Shown here in pieces: positions 6,000 through 58,887 of a DNA stretch of 64,000 nt. The notes under the pieces are model-generated. The model did not search any database, was not told the DNA's origin, and worked only from the letters and a program-made list of their open reading frames with translations. The translations under genes were made by a program, and so were the position numbers. Origin of the DNA: an uncultured bacterium (GTDB taxonomy: Bacteria > Methylomirabilota > Methylomirabilia > Methylomirabilales > CSP1-5); assembly GCA_964348275.1 (NCBI GenBank), contig CAYGBT010000004.1, positions 45,449 through 109,448 on the forward strand. The letters run 5' to 3'. The first letter of the stretch is position 1; each line of letters opens with the position of its first letter.

Positions 6000-6087
6000 G
6001 TTCACGGTTGATGGTTCACGGTTCACAGCTACCCATTCGGAACCCTCCCGTCTATCAACTGTGCACCGTGAGCTGTCACCTATCACC
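6000..6087. repeat. Heptamer-array hairpin element H1 (trpB/trpA junction)
   Basis: Left arm GTTCACG GTTGATG GTTCACG GTTCACA GC (6000-6029). Right arm TATCAAC TGTGCAC CGTGAGC TGTCACC TATCACC (6053-6087) is the imperfect reverse complement. The right arm overlaps the trpB stop codon. Confidence 0.75.
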
Positions 6088-8672: not shown

Positions 8673-8739
8673 GCTGTCAGCTGTCGGCAGTCAGCCGTCA
8701 GCATTCACTCCTTTACGCTGACCGCTGATAGCCGATTGC
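8673..8739. repeat. Heptamer-array hairpin element H2 (trpD/trpC junction)
   Basis: Left arm GCTGTCA GCTGTCG GCAGTCA GCCGTCA GC (8673-8702), 14-nt loop, right arm GCTGACC GCTGATA GCCGATT GC (8717-8739). 18/23 positions are complementary by hand count. Confidence 0.75.
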
Positions 8740-9816: not shown

Positions 9817-9883
9817 GCTGTCAGCGATCGGCAATCAGCTTCTGGCCTTTCAACACCAATGGCCACTGCTGACAGCTGACTGC
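9817..9883. repeat. Heptamer-array hairpin element H3 (trpG/trpD junction)
   Basis: Left arm GCTGTCA GCGATCG GCAATCA GC (9817-9839), right arm GCTGACA GCTGACT GC (9868-9883). Shares the flank TCCCGCTGTCAGC with H2. Confidence 0.7.
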
Positions 9884-10458: not shown

Positions 10459-10584
10459 GTTCATGGGTCAGGCTTCATAGTTCAGAATCGATGGTTGACG
10501 GTTCACCGCTCTCTGTCGAGACGTTGCGTATCACGTTGTAACCGTTCTAGGTTCTCCATGAACCATGAACTATGAACTATGAAC
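10459..10584. repeat. Heptamer-array hairpin element H4 (trpE/trpG junction)
   Basis: Left arm is 7 heptamers: GTTCATG GGTCAGG CTTCATA GTTCAGA ATCGATG GTTGACG GTTCACC (10459-10507). Right arm CATGAAC CATGAAC TATGAAC TATGAAC (10557-10584) contains the trpE stop and its last codons. Further GTTCAC/GTGAAC units continue to ~10622 inside trpE. Confidence 0.75.
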
Positions 10585-12108
10585 CGCATCGTCGGTGAGC
10601 GGTTCACGGTCCACGGGTGAACTTTCGAGGCCTCTCTCGGCCATCTCGATGGCCCGAAGCATCCCCGCGGCCTTGTTCAGGGTCTCTTGATACTCCCGCT
10701 CCGGGTCCGAGTCAGCCACAATTCCAGCTCCTGCCTGAATCCATGCCCGCTCTTTGGTGAAAAGGACGGTCCGAATAGTGATGCAGGTATCCATATTGCC
10801 AGAGAAGCTGAGGTAGCCGACCGCGCCTGCATAAGGGCCCCGTTTGGCCGGCTCCAGCTCTTCGATGATTTCCATCGCCCTGATCTTCGGAGCCCCGCTC
10901 ACCGTCCCGGCCGGAAACGAAGCACGGAGCAGGTCAAAGGCGTCGAGCCCTTGCTGGAGACGACCCCGAACATTCGACACGATGTGCATGACGTGGGAGT
11001 ATCGCTCGATCACCATCAGCTCGTTGACCTCCACGCTTCCCGGTACGGCGACGCGACCGACATCATTCCGTCCAAGATCAACAAGCATGATATGCTCCGC
11101 CCGCTCCTTCGGATCCTCCAAAAGCTCGGCGGCCAGCGCCTGGTCTTCAGACTCGTGACGGCCTCGAGGCCTGGTCCCGGCGATGGGGCGTAAGTCGATC
11201 TGTCCCTCTTCCAAGCGCACTAAAACCTCAGGAGAACTCCCCGCTACTGATAGATCTCCCAGGCGGAGGAAGTACATGTACGGAGATGGGTTAATGATGC
11301 GCAGGGCACGGTAGACGTCAAAGGGCTGAGCGCCCGTCTTGACCTCGAGCCGCTGCGAAAGCACCGCCTGGATAATGTCTCCTGCCGCCACATATTCCTT
11401 GCACTTCAACACTGCCCCACAGAAGCCATCATGGGAAAAGGTCGACCTCGTCTCTAGCGTGCGGGGCGAGAGTGGAGCGAGCAACGGCCGATCAAGCGGT
11501 TTCCGGAGATCGGCAACCAATGCCTCGATCTTCGACAGAGCATGATCATACGCGGCCTCGAGTGTGCTGGCTGCGGTGTCAGGGACAAAGGCATTCGATA
11601 CCACCTGGATCCGCTGACTCAGGTTGTCGAAAATGAGCAGCGTATCCGTAAGCAGGAATACGGCATCGGGGAGCTCCATGTCGTCATCGGTCAGATCTGG
11701 AAGGGTTTCGAAAAAACGAACGGCATCATAGGCCAGATACCCTACCATGCCGCCGAAAAAGCGCGGCAGGCCGTCTACCTTGACGGGCCGATAGACGCTG
11801 AGGGCCTCCTTGACCAGATCGAGCGGATCAGTGATCGTTCGCGTCTCAACTTGCAGCCCCGACCGCAGGAGCTCCGCCTGCCCCTCCTTGGTCCGAATCA
11901 CCAAGAAGGGATTGCGCCCCAGGAAGCTGTATCGGGCCCATTTTTCCCCTCCTTCGACGCTTTCCAGGAGGAAAGCGGTTTCCCCTCCCCCAATCTTCAG
12001 GAAGGCCGATACGGGGGTCTCGATATCAGCGAGGACCTCGCGGTAGACTGGGATCAGGTTACCGAGGCGAGCCTTTGCTTTGAATTCATTTCGAGACGGG
12101 TAATACAT
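10570..12108 (-). CDS. trpE: Anthranilate synthase component I
   Basis: ...LLESVEGGE...GAPKIRAMEIIEELE...GAGIVADSDPE... Start set to ATG 12108 (MYYPSRNEF) with GGGAG 8 nt upstream; the ORF-track start at 12123 is a TTG. Confidence 0.92.
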   Translation of the reverse strand: MYYPSRNEFKAKARLGNLIPVYREVLADIETPVSAFLKIGGGETAFLLESVEGGEKWARYSFLGRNPFLVIRTKEGQAELLRSGLQVETRTITDPLDLVKEALSVYRPVKVDGLPRFFGGMVGYLAYDAVRFFETLPDLTDDDMELPDAVFLLTDTLLIFDNLSQRIQVVSNAFVPDTAASTLEAAYDHALSKIEALVADLRKPLDRPLLAPLSPRTLETRSTFSHDGFCGAVLKCKEYVAAGDIIQAVLSQRLEVKTGAQPFDVYRALRIINPSPYMYFLRLGDLSVAGSSPEVLVRLEEGQIDLRPIAGTRPRGRHESEDQALAAELLEDPKERAEHIMLVDLGRNDVGRVAVPGSVEVNELMVIERYSHVMHIVSNVRGRLQQGLDAFDLLRASFPAGTVSGAPKIRAMEIIEELEPAKRGPYAGAVGYLSFSGNMDTCITIRTVLFTKERAWIQAGAGIVADSDPEREYQETLNKAAGMLRAIEMAERGLESSPVDREPLTDDAVHSS

Positions 12109-13032: not shown

Positions 13033-13752
13033 GTGAGGCCTTCCAGGAAAGACAGCGAGCAGGATTCGTGGCTGCAGCAGGCTGAAAGGAAGCTCGGGCA
13101 GCGTTTCCGAAGCCGAGCCTTGCTTCGGGCCGCGCTCACCCATCCCTCGGCCGGAAGAGAGGGACGGGCCTTCGAACGATTGGAGTTTTTGGGTGATGCC
13201 ATCCTCACCCTCCTTTTGAGTCTGCACCTATATCGGAACTACCCCGATCTCTCCCCCGGCGGATTGACCCGACTCCGCGCGAGCATAGTGAATCGCACCA
13301 AGCTAGCCCAAGCAGCAATGCAATTGGGACTCCCCGTCATGCTCCGCCTGGGAAAGAGCGAGGAGCCGGACGGCCGCCATCGGTCTGCCCTCCTCGCCGC
13401 AGCGTTTGAAGCGGTCGTGGCTGCCCTCTTTCTCGATCGTGGCCTTCGTGGCGTGACGAAATTTCTTCAACAGCATCTGCTTCCCTTGTTTCCCCCGGAT
13501 GCCTCCCTCGATTCGAAATCAGAGCTTCAGACTCTCCTGCAAGCCATGCTCAAGATTCCTCCACGCTACCGCCTCCTCCGGCATTGGGGCCCTCCCCATG
13601 CCAGGCGTTTTGCCGTAGAAGTCGAGGTCAGAGGCCAGCGGCTCGGCAGGGGTGAAGGCCAAAGCCGCCGTGAGGCCGAGCAGGGTGCAGCCCGGAGTGC
13701 ACTCGGTTATCTCCGGGATCACCACAATATTTTGCGGTCCTTTGGAAAATGA
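13033..13752 (+). CDS. rnc: Ribonuclease III
   Basis: ...LLRAALTHPS...ERLEFLGDAIL... signature plus a C-terminal dsRBD-like region. GTG start. Confidence 0.9.
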   Translation: MRPSRKDSEQDSWLQQAERKLGQRFRSRALLRAALTHPSAGREGRAFERLEFLGDAILTLLLSLHLYRNYPDLSPGGLTRLRASIVNRTKLAQAAMQLGLPVMLRLGKSEEPDGRHRSALLAAAFEAVVAALFLDRGLRGVTKFLQQHLLPLFPPDASLDSKSELQTLLQAMLKIPPRYRLLRHWGPPHARRFAVEVEVRGQRLGRGEGQSRREAEQGAARSALGYLRDHHNILRSFGK

Positions 13753-29839: not shown

Positions 29840-29868
29840 AAAGACCACCTGGAACACAGGTGGTCTTT
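29840..29868 (-). terminator. Strong hairpin (12-bp stem, 5-nt loop) with U-rich tails; terminator-like
   Basis: AAAGACCACCTG-GAACA-CAGGTGGTCTTT. On the minus strand it is followed by GUUUCAAG, on the plus strand by UGUCUCG. It lies ~160 nt after the sucD stop and only ~20 nt before the ndk ATG. Confidence 0.5.
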
Positions 29869-29922
29869 TGTCTCGAAGCACCGTGATGTCCACGGCGCAG
29901 CTTCCCGGAATCCTCTTCTTGG

Positions 29923-30030
29923 TCAGTGCCGTTCCAACTATTTTTGCCAACGGTCTCGCTGTACTCGCTCAAGACCCTTGCAACAAGGCAGGCCGCTCAA
30001 ATTCGGCTTATCAAGTTAGAACGGTACTAG
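29923..30030. mobile_element. 108-bp MITE-like element, copy E1 (16-bp terminal inverted repeats)
   Basis: TCAGTGCCGTTCCAAC ...76 nt... GTTAGAACGGTACTAG. The reverse complement aligns ungapped with copy E2 (53805-53912): same length, 49/76 internal positions identical by hand count. The right terminus contains the sucD stop codon. Confidence 0.7.
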
Positions 30031-30919: not shown

Positions 30920-31003
30920 GTTCACGGTTCACCGTTCACAGTTCACAGACGGACCCGGTAGGAACTGCCTCATACCGTGAACCGTGAACTGTCAACTGTG
31001 AAC
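30920..31003. repeat. Heptamer-array hairpin element H5 (sucC/sucD junction)
   Basis: Left arm GTTCACG GTTCACC GTTCACA GTTCACA G (30920-30948), 26-nt loop, right arm CCGTGAAC CGTGAAC TGTCAAC TGTGAAC (30975-31003). 23/28 positions are complementary by hand count. The right arm carries the sucC stop and its last 3 codons. Confidence 0.8.
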
Positions 31004-32161
31004 TCCTTTGGCGGTTTGGGCGGCCAACTCCGCGGCATCAGCCATCGTTTCGGCATTCACAAAGTTCAATCCTGATTCCTTCAGCATTTGCCTCCCTAGC
31101 TCCACGTTGGTTCCTTCCATCCGAATCACGATGGGGAGAGTGACACCCAGCGCCGTGACAGCCTTGATGACCCCCTCCGCCAACCGGTCACACCGCAAGA
31201 TGCCTCCGAAGATGTTGATCAGGACGACTTTGACGTTCCGGTCCGAGATTAAAATACGGAAGGCGTTCTCGATCTGCTCGGCGCTGGCGCCGCCCCCCAC
31301 ATCCAAGAAGTTAGCTGGTTCGCCCCCAGCCAACTTAATAATGTCCATGGTGGCCATGGCCAGACCAGCCCCGTTGACCATACACCCCACGTTGCCGTCC
31401 AGCTTAATGTAGCTCAAGTCGTACTTTGACGCCTCAACCTCCAGGGGAGACTCCTCGTCCACGTCGCGGAGCGCCAGGACTTCGGTGTGTCGGGAGGTCG
31501 CGTTGTCGTCGAAAGTCATTTTCGCATCCAGGGCGAGCAGGCGGCCATCCCCTGTAATCACCAGCGGGTTAATCTCGGCTAGGGAGCAGTCCTTTGTCTC
31601 AAAGGCGCGGTACAGTCTTATGAGGAAATCGGCCACCCCCTTGAGCGTGTCCCCTGTGACGCCAAGCCCGAACCCCAGCTTGCGGGTGTGGAAACCTTGG
31701 ACGCCCGTGGCCGGATCCACGTGCACCCGTGTGATAGCCTCCGGCCTGGTCAGGGCCACCTCCTCAATGTCCATCCCGCCAGCACTGGAGGCCATAATCA
31801 CTGGCAGGCCGACCGAGCGGTCAATCACGATCCCGAGGTACAGCTCCTGGCGGATGTCCATGGCCTCCTCGACCAGTACGCGCTTCACGCGCTGGCCTTC
31901 CGGCCCAGTCTGATGCGTCCTCAGCATCATCCCCAGGATTTGAGATGCAACCTGCTCTGCCTCATCCGGAGACTTCGCCAGTTTGACGCCGCCCCCCTTG
32001 CCTCGGCCGCCAGCATGGATCTGTGCCTTGACTACCACGGTCCCACCGAGCTCCCGTGCGACGGCTAGAGCCTCAGCTGGCGTTTCGACCACGCGCCCCC
32101 GCGGGACTGGGACCCCAAACTCCGCCAGAATTGCCTTGGCCTGATACTCGTGAATCTTCAT
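30992..32161 (-). CDS. sucC: Succinyl-CoA ligase subunit beta
   Basis: [20 protein letters not shown]... ATP-grasp domain ...NIFGGI... Confidence 0.94.
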
Positions 32162-35628: not shown

Positions 35629-36553
35629 TTAGAGCTCTAATTTATCCAGCAATTCGCGAACCGCGGCGGCCGACTTATCGAAGGCGGCCTGTTCGTCTGG
35701 CGTCAGCTTAATCTCAACGACCGGCTCGATCCCACGCTGACCGAGCTTGACCGGAACCTCCACGTAGAATCCCTTGACGCCATACTTACCGTTCAGATGG
35801 GCGGCACACGGGAGGATCTTTTTTTGTCCTTCAGGATGGCTTCGATCATCTCGGTGACCGCCGCGCCGGGGGCGTAATATGCCCCGCCCGTCTTGAGCAA
35901 GCTGACGATCTCTGCCCCGCCGTCTCGCGTTCGCTGGACGATGGCATCGATTTGCACCTGGGAAAGCATCTCGGTGATCGGGATTCCCGCCACGGTACAG
36001 TACCGGGGAGTGGTACCATGGTGTCCCCATGGCCCCCAAGGACAAAGGCGTCCGCGTTCTCTACTGAGACCTGAAGTTCGAGCGCAACAAAGGTCCGGAA
36101 GCGTGCTGAGTCCAGGATCCCCGCCATCCCCATGACTCGTTCTGGTGGAAAGCCACTTCGCTTCCAGGAGAGGTGGGTCATTGCATCTAAGGGATTCGAG
36201 ACCACACTGAGGATGGCGTTCGGGGAGCGCGGCACAACCTGATCCACAACTGTCCCGACGATCTCCGCATTCTCGAAGAGAAGATCATCCCGGCTCATCC
36301 CAGGCTTCCGGGCGAGCCCGGCGGTGATTACAACAATGTCGGAGTCCGCGGTAGGGCCGTAGTCATTGCTTCCGGTTAACTGAGAGTCGTACCTGTGGAT
36401 TGGCCCTGCCTCTCGCAGATCGAGCCCTTTGCCCTGGGGGAGCCTCTCAATAATATCCAGGAGGACCACATCGGCGAACACTTTCTCGACGGTGTACTGA
36501 GTTACCGAGGCTCGGACGTTTCCCGCCCCAACCACAGTTACCTTAGGCCACAT
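35629..36553 (-). pseudogene. mdh: Malate dehydrogenase (LDH-like family) interrupted by two 1-nt frameshifts
   Basis: A full-length MDH can be read only by joining three frames: ...[13 protein letters not shown] | [14 protein letters not shown]...EAILKDKK | [13 protein letters not shown]...LDKLEL. The shifts are at a C4 run (plus-strand 36005-36008) and an A7 run (35819-35825). Also GAGNVR instead of GAGNVG (codon at 36512-36514). Confidence 0.8.
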
Positions 36554-41374: not shown

Positions 41375-42249
41375 CGAAGTTGTTTGCGTACCTCCTTGGC
41401 CCGCTGAAACTCCTGCATCAGGCGAGTCCCATCCTGCCTCCGAATCATCTCCTCAATCTGCTCGAGAACCTTCCGGAACCTTGCGATGGCCTCCAGTACC
41501 TCTCCGCGATTTTCAATCAGGATATCACGCCACATGACGGGATGAGAGGACGCAATCCGAGTGAAATCGCGAAGCCCACCAGCACTAAACCTCAAAAGAT
41601 CCTCCCCCCCGTCTGCCAGGTTCGCGATGGTTCCGATGAGCGCGTAGGCCACAACATGCGGCAGATGACTCACCAGGGCGAAGATCTGATCGTGTCGGAA
41701 CGGATCCATCAGGACCACGTGAGATCCTACCCTTTCCCATAGGCGAATGACGTGTTTGAGCGCCTCCTCTGGGGTCCGGGAAGTCGGCGTGAGAACACAC
41801 AGGCTTCCATGAAAGAGCCCCGCCGAGGCAGCGTCGGGGCCGGAGCGCTCATTCCCGGCGATTGGATGTGAAGGAACGTAGGATCGGCCGGGAGGGATTT
41901 CTGCCTCCACCTGGGCGACGAGGTCTCCTTTCACACTTCCGACGTCAGTGATGATACATCCCGGCCCGAGATAGGGTCCGATGGCGTGAACCACTTCTGC
42001 CATGGCCCCGATCGGAACCGCTACCACGACAAGGTCGGCCCCTTCTACCCCTGCGGGAAGATCGCCCACTTGGTCGACGAGGCCCAGGGCGAGAGCCTGG
42101 TTCAGATGGGTTCGGTCCGCATCCAGCCCGATCACGCGAGTGGCAATCCCGCCCCGGCAGGCCTGAGCCAGACTCCCCCCGATCAGCCCCACACCAATCA
42201 CTACCATCCGCTCGAACAGCGGCTCTGCCTTTGCTGGATCATGGTTCAT
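41371..42249 (-). CDS. tyrA: Prephenate dehydrogenase
   Basis: ...MVVIGVGLIGGSLA... Rossmann fold plus a PDH domain. The start codon ATGAACC lies inside heptamer array H6. Confidence 0.88.
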   Translation of the reverse strand: MNHDPAKAEPLFERMVVIGVGLIGGSLAQACRGGIATRVIGLDADRTHLNQALALGLVDQVGDLPAGVEGADLVVVAVPIGAMAEVVHAIGPYLGPGCIITDVGSVKGDLVAQVEAEIPPGRSYVPSHPIAGNERSGPDAASAGLFHGSLCVLTPTSRTPEEALKHVIRLWERVGSHVVLMDPFRHDQIFALVSHLPHVVAYALIGTIANLADGGEDLLRFSAGGLRDFTRIASSHPVMWRDILIENRGEVLEAIARFRKVLEQIEEMIRRQDGTRLMQEFQRAKEVRKQLR

Positions 42250-42279
42250 GGTTCAAAGTTCACGGCAGTCAAACTTTCG
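42237..42279. repeat. Heptamer array H6 (aroF/tyrA junction; partial element)
   Basis: GATCATG GTTCATG GTTCAAA GTTCACG, then a short hairpin CAAAGTTCAC-GGCA-GTCAAACTTTG. There is no long opposite arm. A 10-bp palindrome ATTTCGAAAT follows. Confidence 0.55.
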
Positions 42280-49277: not shown

Positions 49278-51323
49278 TTATCCTCGCGAGGATCCCCGGT
49301 CTGCGTCAAGACGGCTTCGTATGTCCCGGACCCGTAGGCGGATATCCCGAAACTTCGGCGCCTCACTGTAAATGGCAATCAGGGCCTCGAGCGCTTGTTT
49401 TGCGTTGCCAAGTGCCTCATAGGCTGTCGCCAGATCGTAAAGGACACCCCACCGCTCATCAGTGCCCCCCTCTGTCGCAGCAAGCCCCTTGAGCAATTCC
49501 TCGACCGACCGCTCAGGCTCACCCTTCGCCAGAAAGCAAAGGCCTAAAAGGCTCGCGCATCGCACCCGATAGGTGGCATCGTTCGCGGCTAGTCGAAATT
49601 GCTCGATGGCCTTATCGTAGAGCTCCAAATCTTTATAGGCGAGTCCCAAATTGTAGCGGGTCTCATAGTCGGTCACTTCCAACTGATTGCGAATCCCTTG
49701 ATCGAGCTGGTGGAGCATTTTCTGCACCTGTGGATCGAGATCCGACGGCACGGGGACCTCTTCCGGGCTAAGCTCCTGGTTCAACTCACCGGCGAGGTCC
49801 ACGAATTCTCCCTGGGCAGCTCCTGCCTCAGCCACGCGAAAAATTGAGGTCTGCTTCACGTCCGCTGAAGGAATTTCCTCCTTCCCTGATGCTTCCTCCA
49901 ACCGCTCAATTATTGCCAAGTGCTGCTTGGCCAGCGGATGCTCTGGATCCTGCTGGAGAATCCCATGCAAGATGGCTCGGGCCTCTTGTATCATCCCTTG
50001 TTGCAGAAAAAACCTCGCCTCCTGCAGCTGCTCTTCCAGCGCTTGTGGCCCGGCGAGTTCCACCCGCTCTGATGGCTGCTCCGTTTGCATAGCCATCTCC
50101 TCAGATCCTTCCACGGGATCTAATTCGATGACTGCCGGCTCCGTTTCCTCACCAGCTTGGGCCTCCTCGGCAAAGGAGATATACCTCCGCTCCATCATCT
50201 CCTCCGCGGCCCTCAGCCGTTCGGTCTCTTCGTCAGCCCGTTTTGAGGGGAGGTGCTTGAGGTCTTTGTCATCAAGGGATACCGCCCCTTCGGGCTCTGC
50301 ATCAAACCATCCTCCGAGTTCTTCGTGCAGTTCCAAGGTCGGTGAATCTTGTTCCATAGCTGATGACGCTGGCTCAAAAGCTGGTGTCTTTGCCTCAGAA
50401 GCCGGAGAGATTGTTTCGAGCGCGGGGGACGTTTCCTCGAGGACCGGAGACACTTCCTCGATCGCCGGGGACACTTCTTCGAGGGCCGGGGATAGTTCCT
50501 CAACGGCAGGGGAAATTTCCTCCAGGGTCAGTGTGGAATTTTGTTCCACAGAAGGTCCTGAGAAAATCTCAACGGGGGAAGCCTGCTCCGCGATTTTTCC
50601 TCCCGGATCCGCCTGTTCTCCCTCCCCAGGGAACGCCGCCGCCAGTACCTCGTCGCCCCTCGCCTCTGCCTCAGCGGGGTCGAGGAATCGGAGCGCATCT
50701 GCGAAGCTTGCCGCTTCGGCCGCCCGACCTTGGGACTGCAAAGCCGCCACCGCCCCTTCGTAAATCTGCCGCGCCGCCTCGGCCTGCCCTTCCATCACAA
50801 GGCGCTCTCCCAGGGCATTGAGCTTGGCTAACGACTCACCGACCCTTTCGGGCCTTACCAGGATCCCCACGACCTTGGACAAGGTCGGGCGATGTCCTGG
50901 GTCCATTAGGATAATTTTTTCATATATTTCTAGCGTCCGGGACACATCCCCCTTCTTGAGGTAAGTATCGGCAAGTCCATGGAACTGAAGCTTCGCTTCC
51001 GCAACCAGGCCTTGGTCGGCGTACAACTCGGCGCAAGCGAGCGAGGCGTCCGCATTCGATAGATCGAGCCTGAGCACCTTCTTGTAAACCGCAATAGCCC
51101 GCTCATAAAAGCCATCCGCCCGGTAGACGTCTGCGAGGCGCATGAAGTACGCGATAGCCTCCGACCTATTCCCGATCCGGGCGCAGAGGTCCCCAAGGGC
51201 GTTCAGCACATTACAGTTACTCGGATCGGCCCCCAGGATCGCCTGATATTCAGCGATAGCCCGATCGAGTTTTCCCTGTTGGACGTAGTTTAAGGCAGTT
51301 TGTAGCTGCTTTCGCTTCGCCAT
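49278..51323 (-). CDS. TPR-repeat protein with central acidic heptapeptide-repeat linker
   Basis: 681 aa. TPR-like helices at both ends, with an acidic Glu/Ser/Pro-rich middle. Confidence 0.75.
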   Translation of the reverse strand: MAKRKQLQTALNYVQQGKLDRAIAEYQAILGADPSNCNVLNALGDLCARIGNRSEAIAYFMRLADVYRADGFYERAIAVYKKVLRLDLSNADASLACAELYADQGLVAEAKLQFHGLADTYLKKGDVSRTLEIYEKIILMDPGHRPTLSKVVGILVRPERVGESLAKLNALGERLVMEGQAEAARQIYEGAVAALQSQGRAAEAASFADALRFLDPAEAEARGDEVLAAAFPGEGEQADPGGKIAEQASPVEIFSGPSVEQNSTLTLEEISPAVEELSPALEEVSPAIEEVSPVLEETSPALETISPASEAKTPAFEPASSAMEQDSPTLELHEELGGWFDAEPEGAVSLDDKDLKHLPSKRADEETERLRAAEEMMERRYISFAEEAQAGEETEPAVIELDPVEGSEEMAMQTEQPSERVELAGPQALEEQLQEARFFLQQGMIQEARAILHGILQQDPEHPLAKQHLAIIERLEEASGKEEIPSADVKQTSIFRVAEAGAAQGEFVDLAGELNQELSPEEVPVPSDLDPQVQKMLHQLDQGIRNQLEVTDYETRYNLGLAYKDLELYDKAIEQFRLAANDATYRVRCASLLGLCFLAKGEPERSVEELLKGLAATEGGTDERWGVLYDLATAYEALGNAKQALEALIAIYSEAPKFRDIRLRVRDIRSRLDADRGSSRG
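50334..50522 (-). repeat. 9 x 21-nt in-frame tandem repeat (heptapeptide EExSPAx)
   Basis: EEISPAV EELSPAL EEVSPAI EEVSPVL EETSPAL ETISPAS EAKTPAF EPASSAM EQDSPTL, read from the minus strand. Confidence 0.85.
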
Positions 51324-53150: not shown

Positions 53151-53225
53151 TTCACGGATGACGGTTCACAGTCCACAGACACGAGGGAACCGAGACGAAC
53201 GGGAATCGTCAACAGTGAACGATAA
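53151..53225. repeat. Heptamer-array hairpin element H7 (hpf/rapZ junction)
   Basis: CTTCACG GATGACG GTTCACA GTCCACA ... CGTCAAC AGTGAAC GAT. Imperfect inverted arrays. The left arm abuts the rapZ ATG with no SD. Confidence 0.6.
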
Positions 53226-53239
53226 ACCGTAAAGGGTGT

Positions 53240-53804: not shown

Positions 53805-53912
53805 CTAGTGCCGTTCCAACCTGATAAGCCCAATGAGACCTGTGCGTCTTGTTACAACAGGCACGAAAGCGTCCAGTGAGAAAATTGGCACAAGTCGTTG
53901 GAACGGCATTAG
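53805..53912. mobile_element. 108-bp MITE-like element, copy E2
   Basis: CTAGTGCCGTTCCAAC ...76 nt... GTTGGAACGGCATTAG; the termini are 15/16 complementary. Flanked by TA/TA if the termini are taken as GTGCC.../...GGCAT. The right terminus contains the rpoN stop codon. Opposite orientation to E1. Confidence 0.7.
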
Positions 53913-58821: not shown

Positions 58822-58887
58822 CTATTTCTTCTTAGTGGCCTTTTTCTTCTTTGCCGGCTTCTTGGCGGCCTTCTTCTTCTTTGCCAT
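58822..58887 (-). CDS. Mini-ORF, 21-aa poly-lysine peptide MAKKKKAAKKPAKKKKATKKK
   Basis: ATG 58887 to TAG 58822. AGGAGGTGA is 6 nt upstream. An in-frame TGA lies immediately 5' of the ATG. Paralogous to the neighbouring mini-ORF. Confidence 0.5.
   Translation of the reverse strand: MAKKKKAAKKPAKKKKATKKK

What the first reader, a model, noticed from the sequence alone, without database searches (positions are those of the whole stretch)
30920..31003. Family of intergenic hairpin elements whose arms are tandem heptanucleotide arrays
Seven junctions between co-directional genes carry the same architecture. The layout is 3-7 tandem heptamers, a 14-50 nt loop, then the reverse-complement heptamer array. 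The copies are H1 6000-6087 (trpB/trpA), H2 8673-8739 (trpD/trpC), H3 9817-9883 (trpG/trpD), H4 10459-10584 (trpE/trpG), H5 30920-31003 (sucC/sucD), H6 42237-42279 (aroF/tyrA, one arm only) and H7 53151-53225 (hpf/rapZ). The best example is H5: GTTCACG GTTCACC GTTCACA GTTCACA ... CGTGAAC CGTGAAC TGTCAAC TGTGAAC. Because each arm is 7-nt periodic, pairing can occur in several registers. All copies sit exactly between a stop codon and the next start codon inside operons, never at operon ends in this window. They resemble REP/BIME-type elements in position and the cyanobacterial STRR heptamer repeats in periodicity, but I do not recognise this inverted heptamer-array design. Possible roles include mRNA processing or stabilisation, uncoupling or tuning of translation of the downstream cistron, or a footprint of a repeat-generating mechanism.
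Basis: seen in the sequence. Interest (0 to 1): 0.7.

Follow-up and report, generated by a model that had tools for sequence, protein, structure and literature searches.

The report
Heptamer-repeat hairpins between operon genes
Between neighbouring genes of several operons, this uncultured NC10 (Methylomirabilota) bacterium carries short 7-base tandem repeats followed by their mirror-image copy, able to fold into long hairpins; this is a real but already described kind of bacterial repeat (like cyanobacterial STRR hairpins) whose function is still unknown.

Summary
The window has six period-7 runs, against 0.09 expected from shuffles and none for periods 4-6 and 8-12. They lie in seven short gaps between co-directional minus-strand genes: trpE/G, G/D, D/C, B/A, sucC/D, aroF/tyrA and hpf/rapZ. 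Six of the seven have a complementary second arm; H6 has one arm.

The organism belongs to candidate division NC10. Its close relatives carry inverted arrays at the same trp and sucC/sucD junctions, but with other units (GAGAC, GTTCAG/T, GACCG). One sister lineage uses period 8 (GTTCGNNN). More distant relatives have spacers of roughly 10-40 nt and no arrays.

Related assemblies differ by a 7-nt single-unit indel and by a 111-nt indel. Arrays overrun stop codons and extend TrpE, TrpB and SucC. RNA folds show no sense/antisense bias, and covariation is weak.

The design is not new. Inverted heptamer-array pairs are published for Xanthomonas, and STRR hairpins between hupS and hupL for cyanobacteria. 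I also found them in many phyla.

Best reading: these are STRR-type heptanucleotide microsatellite hairpins made by slippage and template switching. They are tolerated after stop codons and co-transcribed, possibly with REP-like effects on mRNA. This is a new member of a known, still unexplained kind.

The parts
30977..31004 (-). H5, arm at the mRNA 5' side: GTTCACA GTTGACA GTTCACG GTTCACG. It contains the last codons and stop of sucC (GGA GTT CAC AGT TGA = G V H S stop; stop at 30992-30994).
30920..30947 (-). H5, arm at the mRNA 3' side: TGTGAAC TGTGAAC GGTGAAC CGTGAAC. It ends 17 nt before the sucD ATG (30903-30901); the purine-rich Shine-Dalgarno-like stretch GGGAAGAGGGG lies outside the stem.
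   Evidence: MFE -47.2 kcal/mol, z -4.1
30948..30976 (-). H5 loop. It was replaced by NN in an independent assembly of the same organism (L001). It is poorly conserved in the 92%-SucC relative L213.
6000..6087 (-). H1, trpB/trpA junction. The 3' arm is at 6000-6027 (GTTCACG GTTGATG GTTCACG GTTCACA on +). The degenerate 5' arm is at 6052-6087 and covers the trpB stop (6076-6078; GGT GAT AGG TGA).
   Evidence: (z -1.2)
8673..8739 (-). H2, trpD/trpC junction, unit GTCAGCN / NGCTGAC. The 3' arm ends 5 nt before the trpC ATG (8667).
   Evidence: (MFE -40.8, z -4.3)
9817..9883 (-). H3, trpG/trpD junction, degenerate GTCAGCN hairpin. The same outer hairpin type is present in relatives L122-L130.
   Evidence: (z -2.2)
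10459..10625 (-). H4, trpE/trpG junction. The 3' arm is at 10459-10507 (degenerate GTTCAYN units). The 5' arm is at 10556-10585 (ATGAACY x4 on +) and covers the trpE stop (10570-10572; ...GTT CAT AGT TCA TAG). Further period-7 units lie inside the trpE 3' end (about 10595-10625). They help encode a C-terminal extension of roughly 20 residues that lies beyond the family profiles.
   Evidence: (z -2.0)
42237..42264 (-). H6, aroF/tyrA junction. A single array (GTGAACT TTGAACC ATGAACC ATGATCC in mRNA sense) overlaps the tyrA start codon (42249-42247). There is no complementary arm and no hairpin.
   Evidence: (z -0.5)
53151..53226 (-). H7, hpf/rapZ junction, degenerate GTTCACN hairpin. The 3' arm ends 4 nt before the rapZ ATG (53147).
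   Evidence: (z -1.5)

Best explanation
These are STRR-type heptanucleotide microsatellite arrays arranged as inverted pairs. The same kind is described between hupS and hupL in cyanobacteria and as GGGAATC pairs in Xanthomonas. Here they occur in a candidate-division NC10 (Methylomirabilota) genome.

Origin (inferred). Units multiply by slipped-strand replication. Strand or template switching copies an array into its reverse complement, which creates or re-homogenises the second arm. The 7-nt periodic arms allow slipped registers, and that promotes further gain and loss of units.

Persistence (inferred). The arrays sit in the short spacer after a stop codon and before the next ribosome-binding site. 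A self-complementary insert folds out of the way in the polycistronic mRNA, so the stop codon and the next start stay close together.

Effect (inferred, untested). The arrays are co-transcribed. As 20-30 bp imperfect RNA stems they probably have REP-like side effects: a barrier to 3' exonucleases, a possible RNase III substrate (an rnc gene is in the window), and ribosome unwinding at the stop codon. Variation in unit number would change these effects.

Shown: the anatomy, the statistics, persistence with turnover at the same junctions in relatives, one unit-sized indel between related assemblies, invasion of coding ends, and the absence of an RNA strand signature.

Inferred: the generating mechanism and any role in mRNA.
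For: - Excess of period 7: six runs against 0.09 in shuffles, and none at other periods.
- Taxon: the best named SucC hits are candidate division NC10 (95%) and Ca. Methylomirabilis (83%).
- Same junctions, different units. Relatives with TrpD 74-80% identical carry inverted arrays at trpE/G, G/D, D/C and B/A with units such as GAGACNN/GTCTC and CGTTCAA. L131/134/141 use period 8 (GTTCGNNN). Relatives with TrpD at most 68% identical mostly have short spacers (roughly 10-40 nt, apart from L138/L139) and almost no arrays.
- The sucC/sucD junction in five NC10 lineages always has inverted heptamer arrays, with three unit families. Identical sequence was recovered from six independent assemblies.
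- DNA-level dynamics: L124 and L127 differ by exactly one 7-nt unit, L126 and L127 by a 111-nt indel, and a new GAGAC hairpin sits nested in the loop of the older GTCAGC hairpin.
- Arrays supply the stop codons and C-terminal residues of TrpE, TrpB and SucC. SucC length varies from 387 to 390 aa.
- Slipped registers at exactly +/-7 nt are the next-best folds.
- No strand signature: in 34 junction hairpins the sense strand is more stable in 18 and the antisense in 15 (p = 0.44).
- The unit is arbitrary. In viral contigs GTTCACN x3 gives 92 loci and permuted controls give 43, 30 and 103. Period 7 (92) exceeds period 6 (71) and period 8 (25).
- Widespread: 362 period-7 runs in 814 kb from more than 10 phyla, 93 of them in inverted pairs.
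- Literature: PMC4692102, PMC2670836 and PMC4679880, the last also summarising Mrazek 2007 on heptamer excess and the polymerase-slippage idea.
Against: - Independent local slippage does not explain why five of seven sites in this genome share GTTCAY, or why each related genome has its own dominant unit. Some copying between loci, or a trans-acting preference, is implied but not identified.
- Variability within units is concentrated in one or two adjacent positions: 0.74 against 0.58 under the null, p = 2e-4, in NC10, and weaker in other phyla. Pure slippage does not predict this; it hints at constraint on a 5-6 nt core.
- Persistence of the architecture at the same junctions while unit, and even period, are replaced could equally mean selection for the hairpin itself.
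- No experimental data on transcripts were available.
- The indels between relatives come from metagenome assemblies, and hairpins disturb assembly (NN in L001).
Confidence: 0.6

Rival explanations
1. Selected intercistronic RNA hairpins that work like REP/BIME. The stem in the polycistronic mRNA is the functional unit. It would block 3'-5' exonucleases, serve as an RNase III site, or couple and tune translation of the flanking cistrons. Periodic arms would let slippage adjust stem length, giving a heritable rheostat for operon stoichiometry.
For: - A hairpin is kept at the same trp and sucC/sucD junctions in all close lineages although unit and period change.
- A more distant Methylomirabilis (L204) has a non-periodic GC hairpin at sucC/sucD.
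- Arms begin at or over the stop codon and end 4-17 nt before the start codon. A Shine-Dalgarno-like stretch is left free in four of seven sites.
- In other phyla they are rare between divergent genes (1 of 24).
- Two compensatory pairs occur in the sucC/sucD alignment.
- An RNase III gene is present.
- The same roles are proposed in PMC2670836.
Against: - There is no sense-strand advantage in folding energy. Some hairpins are 15-20 kcal/mol better on the antisense strand.
- Covariation is not above controls (46 of 500 shuffles).
- H6 has no second arm, and H1 and H7 fold little better than shuffles.
- Relatives without arrays do well with short spacers.
- Arms invade coding sequence.
Confidence: 0.25
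2. A REPIN/MITE-like mobile hairpin family, copied between loci by a trans-acting enzyme such as a RAYT-type Y1 transposase or an unknown repeat-generating activity. The heptamer core would be its recognition unit.
For: - Unit families are shared between unlinked loci within a genome. GTTCAY occurs at five sites here and GAGAC at two or more trp junctions in L127 and L122. Related genomes differ in their dominant unit.
- A GTTGAY variant unit recurs next to GTTCAC units in H1, H4, H5 and H7.
- A new hairpin sits inserted in the loop of an older one.
- A conserved core with variable positions.
Against: - Loops and flanks share no sequence, and I saw no target-site duplications or terminal signature such as GTAG.
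- Unit number and even period vary.
- No transposase was seen among the window proteins I scanned; I scanned only part of the window.
- Permuted control heptamers are about as common as GTTCAC in a large collection.
Confidence: 0.1
3. Transcription terminators or attenuators inside operons.
For: They are strong stems placed directly after stop codons. In other phyla many lie between convergent genes. PMC2670836 considers termination for one STRR hairpin.
Against: - There is no U-tract, and loops of 14-50 nt are too long for an intrinsic terminator. The terminator scan flags none of them.
- Four in a row inside the trp operon would abolish expression of the distal genes.
- A more conventional stem followed by TTTGTTT lies after sucD at the operon end.
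Confidence: 0.05

Closest known systems
Cyanobacterial STRR (short tandemly repeated repetitive) heptamer sequences, including the hairpin between hupS and hupL (PMC2670836; Calothrix repeats cited in PMC4692102)
   Same: 7-nt tandem units. They can form a hairpin. They lie in an intercistronic spacer of an operon. The function is unknown, with the same proposals of transcript stability and translational coupling. A title in the reference list of PMC2670836 (Jackman and Mulligan 1995) describes 'highly variable but structured intergenic regions' in closely related cyanobacteria.
   Different: The unit sequences differ: STRR1-3 are CCCCAGT, TTGGTCA and CAACAGT from my own knowledge, against GTTCACN, GTCAGCN and GTTCATN here. 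The host phylum is NC10 rather than cyanobacteria. Here a sister lineage uses period 8 at the same junctions.
Xanthomonas GGGAATC heptamer repeats in inverted pairs (Rehm et al. 2015, PMC4692102)
   Same: Two heptamer arrays in convergent orientation close together (70-75 pairs per genome). Mostly between co-oriented ORFs, within 0-50 bp of or overlapping stop codons. Rare between divergent genes. Transcribed. Length and sequence vary between close species.
   Different: Those units are G-rich and were interpreted as G-quadruplex formers; the units here cannot form G4. The host is different.
TAACTGA direct repeats of marine Beggiatoaceae, cyanobacteria and Bacteroidetes (MacGregor 2015, PMC4679880)
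   Same: Heptamer arrays a few nucleotides upstream of start codons, often without a canonical ribosome-binding site. This resembles H6, and the 3' arms of H1 and H7.
   Different: Almost all of those are direct repeats (169 direct sets and one indirect), with one dominant unit per genome.
REP/BIME/REPIN elements of enterobacteria and pseudomonads (own knowledge: Higgins, Stern, Newbury; Bertels and Rainey; Liang, Rudd and Deutscher 2015)
   Same: Extragenic hairpins in transcribed spacers within or at the ends of operons, and absent from promoters. Known effects include mRNA stabilisation. When placed within about 15 nt of a stop codon they reduce translation of the upstream gene.
   Different: REPs are non-periodic 20-40 nt palindromes with a conserved sequence and a GTAG signature, spread by RAYT transposases. 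Here the arms are tandem arrays of arbitrary units and no RAYT link is known.

Membership tests
STRR-type heptanucleotide tandem-repeat hairpins (heptamer LSSR class) | Head-to-tail tandem units of 7 nt, three or more copies, far above chance | tested here: met
   TRF. Six lag-7 runs against 0.09 in shuffles, and none at other periods.
STRR-type heptanucleotide tandem-repeat hairpins (heptamer LSSR class) | Intergenic, close to or overlapping stop or start codons of flanking genes | tested here: met
   All seven lie in gaps of 68-121 nt. Arms overlap the stops of trpB, trpE and sucC and the start of tyrA.
STRR-type heptanucleotide tandem-repeat hairpins (heptamer LSSR class) | Second array in inverted orientation nearby, giving a stem-loop | tested here: met
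   Six of seven sites. z from -4.3 to -1.2; inverted repeats I2, I5, I6, I10 and I14. H6 lacks the second arm.
STRR-type heptanucleotide tandem-repeat hairpins (heptamer LSSR class) | Length and sequence vary between close relatives at the same locus | tested here: met
   Unit turnover, a 7-nt indel and a 111-nt indel at trp junctions. Three unit families at sucC/sucD.
STRR sensu stricto (cyanobacterial STRR1-3) | Unit CCCCAGT, TTGGTCA or CAACAGT, in a filamentous cyanobacterium | tested here: not met
   Units are GTTCACN, GTCAGCN and GTTCATN. The host is NC10.
REP/BIME/REPIN | Conserved non-periodic palindrome sequence shared by all copies, with a GTAG-type signature | tested here: not met
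   Arms are periodic arrays, units differ between sites, loops are unrelated, and no GTAG lies at the element ends.
REP/BIME/REPIN | Associated RAYT (Y1 transposase) gene in the genome | not testable with these tools
   Only a 64-kb window is available. None was seen among the 20 window proteins scanned.
REP/BIME/REPIN | Located in transcribed spacers, not in promoter regions | tested here: inconclusive
   All seven lie in short co-directional gaps, but 30 of 33 gaps are co-directional. In other phyla 1 of 24 lies between divergent genes.
Intrinsic (Rho-independent) terminator | Short GC-rich stem, small loop, then a U-tract | tested here: not met
   The terminator scan flags none of the elements. 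Loops are 14-50 nt and no T run follows the 3' arms.
MITE | Terminal inverted repeats plus a target-site duplication, with near-identical dispersed copies | tested here: not met
   No duplicated flanks and no shared internal sequence.
Any curated RNA family (Rfam 15) | Match at the gathering score | tested here: not met
   No hits at gathering score in the whole window. Only generic hairpin (miRNA-precursor) matches far below threshold at H5.

The most novel reading that the evidence does not exclude
Periodic-arm hairpins (period 7 or 8) are kept at the same intercistronic junctions across an NC10 clade while their unit sequence is completely replaced. On this reading the periodic, register-slippable structure itself is under selection. 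It would act as a slippage-tunable rheostat for the stability or translation of neighbouring cistrons, that is, a contingency-locus logic applied to housekeeping operons. Alternatively an unidentified repeat-generating or repeat-copying activity is shared by the many phyla that carry such arrays.
Probability: 0.12. Interest if true: 0.75.

Novelty: new member of a known kind. Interest (0 to 1): 0.4.

Why it matters
Heptamer tandem repeats are the most over-represented long simple repeats in many bacteria, and no mechanism or function has been established in more than 30 years.

This locus adds a phylum (NC10/Methylomirabilota) and a useful natural series. The same operon junctions in related lineages carry hairpins with different units, different unit numbers, a nested insertion and even a different period. 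That series could be used to separate selection for structure from self-perpetuating mutation.

Practically, such hairpins break short-read assemblies, shift stop codons and add repeat-derived tails to annotated proteins.

Tried and rejected
- Strand asymmetry (G.U pairs) as a signature of RNA-level selection: no bias, 18 against 15, p = 0.44.
- Covariation on a five-sequence sucC/sucD alignment: two compensatory pairs, not above shuffles. The trpG/D junctions were too rearranged to align.
- Rfam: nothing.
- A universal GTTCAC motif or factor: rejected. Permuted control heptamers are about as frequent in viral contigs, and by-catch arrays have 123 distinct units among 165.
- Terminator reading: rejected.
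- Bias for intra-operon junctions: not testable in this window and not general elsewhere.
- A TRAP-like regulator of aromatic amino-acid operons (five of seven sites are in trp or aro operons): rejected. sucCD and hpf/rapZ also carry the elements, and relatives have other units at the same sites.
- Identifying the source record: the exact-protein look-up gave only an accession, RpoN was not on record, and no paper mentions the accession.
- Exhaustive suboptimal folding timed out and was replaced by a register scan.
- Stems against loops: arms were better conserved than the loop between the window and L213, but not between L202 and L203. This was a by-eye count on the sequences and is inconclusive.

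Full report
**What is there**

The sequence at 30920-31003 reads GTTCACG GTTCACC GTTCACA GTTCACA, a 29-nt spacer, then CGTGAAC CGTGAAC TGTCAAC TGTGAAC.

The periodicity is far beyond chance:
- Counting 21-nt windows with at least 16 self-matches at a given lag gives six runs at lag 7.
- Lags 4-6 and 8-12 give none.
- Three hundred local shuffles give a mean of 0.09 runs.
- Tandem Repeats Finder reports the same arrays.

**Gene context**

All flanking genes are on the minus strand.

In mRNA sense each element begins at or just after the upstream stop codon.
- In H1, H4 and H5 the stop codon lies inside the first units of the 5' arm: sucC ends GGA GTT CAC AGT TGA, trpE ends GTT CAT AGT TCA TAG, and trpB ends GGT GAT AGG TGA.
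- The 3' arm ends 4-17 nt before the next ATG.
- TrpE family profiles stop near residue 497 of 517. Further period-7 units lie inside the trpE 3' end, so the tail of TrpE appears to be at least partly repeat-derived.

**Folding**

As RNA in the sense orientation, z-scores against dinucleotide shuffles are -4.3 (H2), -4.1 (H5), -2.2 (H3), -2.0 (H4), -1.5 (H7), -1.2 (H1) and -0.5 (H6). H6 has only one arm.

A register scan shows that the best alternative hairpins are shifted by exactly 7 or 14 nt. For H5 the energies are -43.0, then -31.3 and -29.2 kcal/mol. For H2 they are -35.5, then -30.5. The 'several registers' remark is therefore correct.

None of the elements looks like an intrinsic terminator. 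By eye, a more conventional stem followed by TTTGTTT lies after sucD at about 29850-29895, although the scan tool did not flag it. Rfam has no matching family.

**Position statistics**

The window has 33 gaps of at least 25 nt, and 30 of them are co-directional. Seven of seven elements in co-directional gaps therefore carries no weight (p about 0.5). The elements occupy short gaps of 68-121 nt and essentially fill them.

**Organism and relatives**

The closest named SucC relatives are candidate division NC10 (95%) and Candidatus Methylomirabilis (83%).

*trp operon.* A metagenome scan with TrpD returned 80 loci.
- Relatives with TrpD 74-80% identical (L122-L130) carry inverted period-7 arrays at the same four trp junctions, often with other units. 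L124/126/127 and L122 have GAGACNN/GTCTC, and L129 has CGTTCAA.
- L131/134/141 (TrpD about 70% identical) carry inverted arrays of period 8 (GTTCGNNN/NNNCGAAC) at trpE/G and trpD/C.
- Relatives with TrpD at most 68% identical mostly have short spacers (roughly 10-40 nt, apart from L138/L139) and almost no arrays.

*sucC/sucD.* Five NC10 lineages all have inverted heptamer arrays at this junction.
- The window and L213/214 have GTTCAC.
- L202, L205-210 and L203 have GTTCAG/T.
- L211/212 have GNTGACC/GGTCGNC.
- A more distant Methylomirabilis (L204, 67% GC) has a non-periodic GC hairpin there.
- Six independent assemblies give the identical junction, so these are not assembly artefacts. One assembly of the window's own organism has NN in the loop.

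**Signs of DNA-level dynamics**

- L124 and L127 differ by exactly one GAGAC unit in one arm.
- L126 and L127 differ by a 111-nt indel that removes a hairpin.
- In L124/126/127 a GAGAC hairpin sits inside the loop of the older GTCAGC hairpin, and it folds as nested stems (z = -3.1).
- SucC length varies from 387 to 390 residues.

**Tests for selection on RNA structure**

- Across 34 junction hairpins the sense strand is the more stable in 18 and the antisense in 15 (Wilcoxon p = 0.44). Some hairpins are 15-20 kcal/mol better on the antisense strand.
- In a five-sequence sucC/sucD alignment 77% of cells pair, but only two pairs show compensatory change. The covariation score is reached by 46 of 500 shuffles.
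- No RNA-specific signature was therefore found. These tests have little power, and they do not exclude a double-stranded RNA role.

**What simple slippage does not explain**

- Five of the seven sites share GTTCAY, and each related genome has its own dominant unit.
- Variability within units is concentrated in one or two adjacent positions. The share is 0.74 against 0.58 under the null (p = 2e-4) in NC10, and 0.63 against 0.57 (p = 5e-6) in other phyla.
- These two points leave room for copying between loci or for constraint on a core.

**Breadth**

- Those 814 kb hold 362 period-7 runs with very diverse units, and 93 of the runs form 52 inverted pairs within 200 nt.
- Of 24 hairpins I could classify, 13 lie between co-directional genes, 9 between convergent genes, 1 between divergent genes and 1 inside an ORF. 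The arms commonly abut the gene ends.
- The unit is not special. In viral contigs GTTCACN x3 gives 92 loci and three permuted controls give 43, 30 and 103. Period 8 gives 25 and period 6 gives 71.

**Literature**

- Heptamers are the most over-represented long simple repeats in many bacteria, and polymerase slippage was proposed as the cause (Mrazek 2007, as summarised in PMC4679880).
- Rehm et al. 2015 found 70-75 inverted pairs of GGGAATC arrays per Xanthomonas genome. They lie mostly between co-oriented ORFs, within 50 bp of or overlapping stop codons. They are transcribed and differ between close species (PMC4692102).
- STRR 7-bp repeats forming hairpins between hupS and hupL in several cyanobacteria are described. 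Transcript stability and translational coupling are the suggested roles (PMC2670836).
- TAACTGA arrays sit just upstream of start codons in Beggiatoaceae (PMC4679880).
- I found nothing on NC10.

**Conclusion**

It is an NC10 member of the STRR-type heptamer-hairpin class.

- The best-supported account is a self-perpetuating DNA repeat made by slippage plus template switching and tolerated after stop codons. It is co-transcribed, and any REP-like effects on mRNA are plausible but untested.
- Selection for the hairpin itself, or an active copying mechanism, cannot be excluded.
- The series of orthologous junctions found here would be a good system for deciding between these readings.

Noticed in passing
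window 10595-10625 and 10570-10585; also 30992-31004 and 6076-6087: Repeat units lie inside the 3' ends of trpE, sucC and trpB and supply their last residues and stop codons. TrpE has a tail of roughly 20 residues beyond the family profiles. SucC homologues vary from 387 to 390 aa.
   Followed up: partly
L131 1893-2032 and 3716-3759; L134 3580-3612 and 5407-5438; L141 1725-1767 and 3463-3543: A sister lineage (TrpD about 70% identical, GC 68-69%) has inverted arrays of period 8 (GTTCGNNN / NNNCGAAC) at the same trpE/G and trpD/C junctions.
   Followed up: partly
L127 4866-5003 (also L124, L126): Nested element: a GAGAC/GTCTC heptamer hairpin sits in the loop of the older GTCAGC hairpin at trpG/trpD (fold z -3.1).
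   Followed up: yes
L001 4189-4190: An independent assembly of the same organism has NN in place of the H5 loop, so the hairpin breaks short-read assembly or scaffolding.
   Followed up: no
window about 29850-29895 (minus strand): A stem GACCACCTG/CAGGTGGTC followed by TTTGTTT lies between sucD and ndk. It looks like a conventional terminator at the operon end, but the scan tool did not flag it.
   Followed up: partly
window 53805-53820 and 53897-53912; similar motif near 29935-29950: A 16-nt inverted repeat, 94% complementary (CTAGTGCCGTTCCAAC / GTTGGAACGGCATTAG), spans the rpoN/hpf gap. GTTGGAACGGCAC also occurs in the sucD/ndk spacer. Its meaning is unknown.
   Followed up: no
window 13033-13752 (+): An RNase III gene (Ribonuclease_3 plus dsrm domains) lies in the window, so the enzyme that would cut long RNA stems is encoded by this organism.
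   Followed up: no
window 50416-50526: A 21/42-nt tandem repeat (about 5 copies, 75% matches) lies inside a 681-aa TPR-repeat protein gene (49278-51323, minus strand).
   Followed up: no
window 58828-58885: A 30-nt tandem repeat (CTTCTTAGCGGCCTTCTTCTTCTTTGCCGG, 1.9 copies) lies in the 457-nt gap or small ORF between 58616 and 59072.
   Followed up: no
window 35629-36553: The malate/lactate dehydrogenase gene looks split. The 235-aa ORF matches Ldh_1_N but only the start of Ldh_1_C, and a second ORF (35629-36045) follows. The homologue in L202 is 308 aa. This may be a frameshift or a sequencing error.
   Followed up: no
L204 20664-20734: In a 67%-GC Methylomirabilis contig, an inverted heptamer pair (GCTCATA... 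/ ...GCCATGA) lies between nusB and the lumazine synthase gene. The class is therefore present there too, but at other junctions.
   Followed up: no
L215-L578 (viral contigs): Heptamer arrays of arbitrary unit are tens of times more frequent in IMG/VR contigs than I roughly estimate chance would give (30-103 loci per 18-base pattern).
   Followed up: partly
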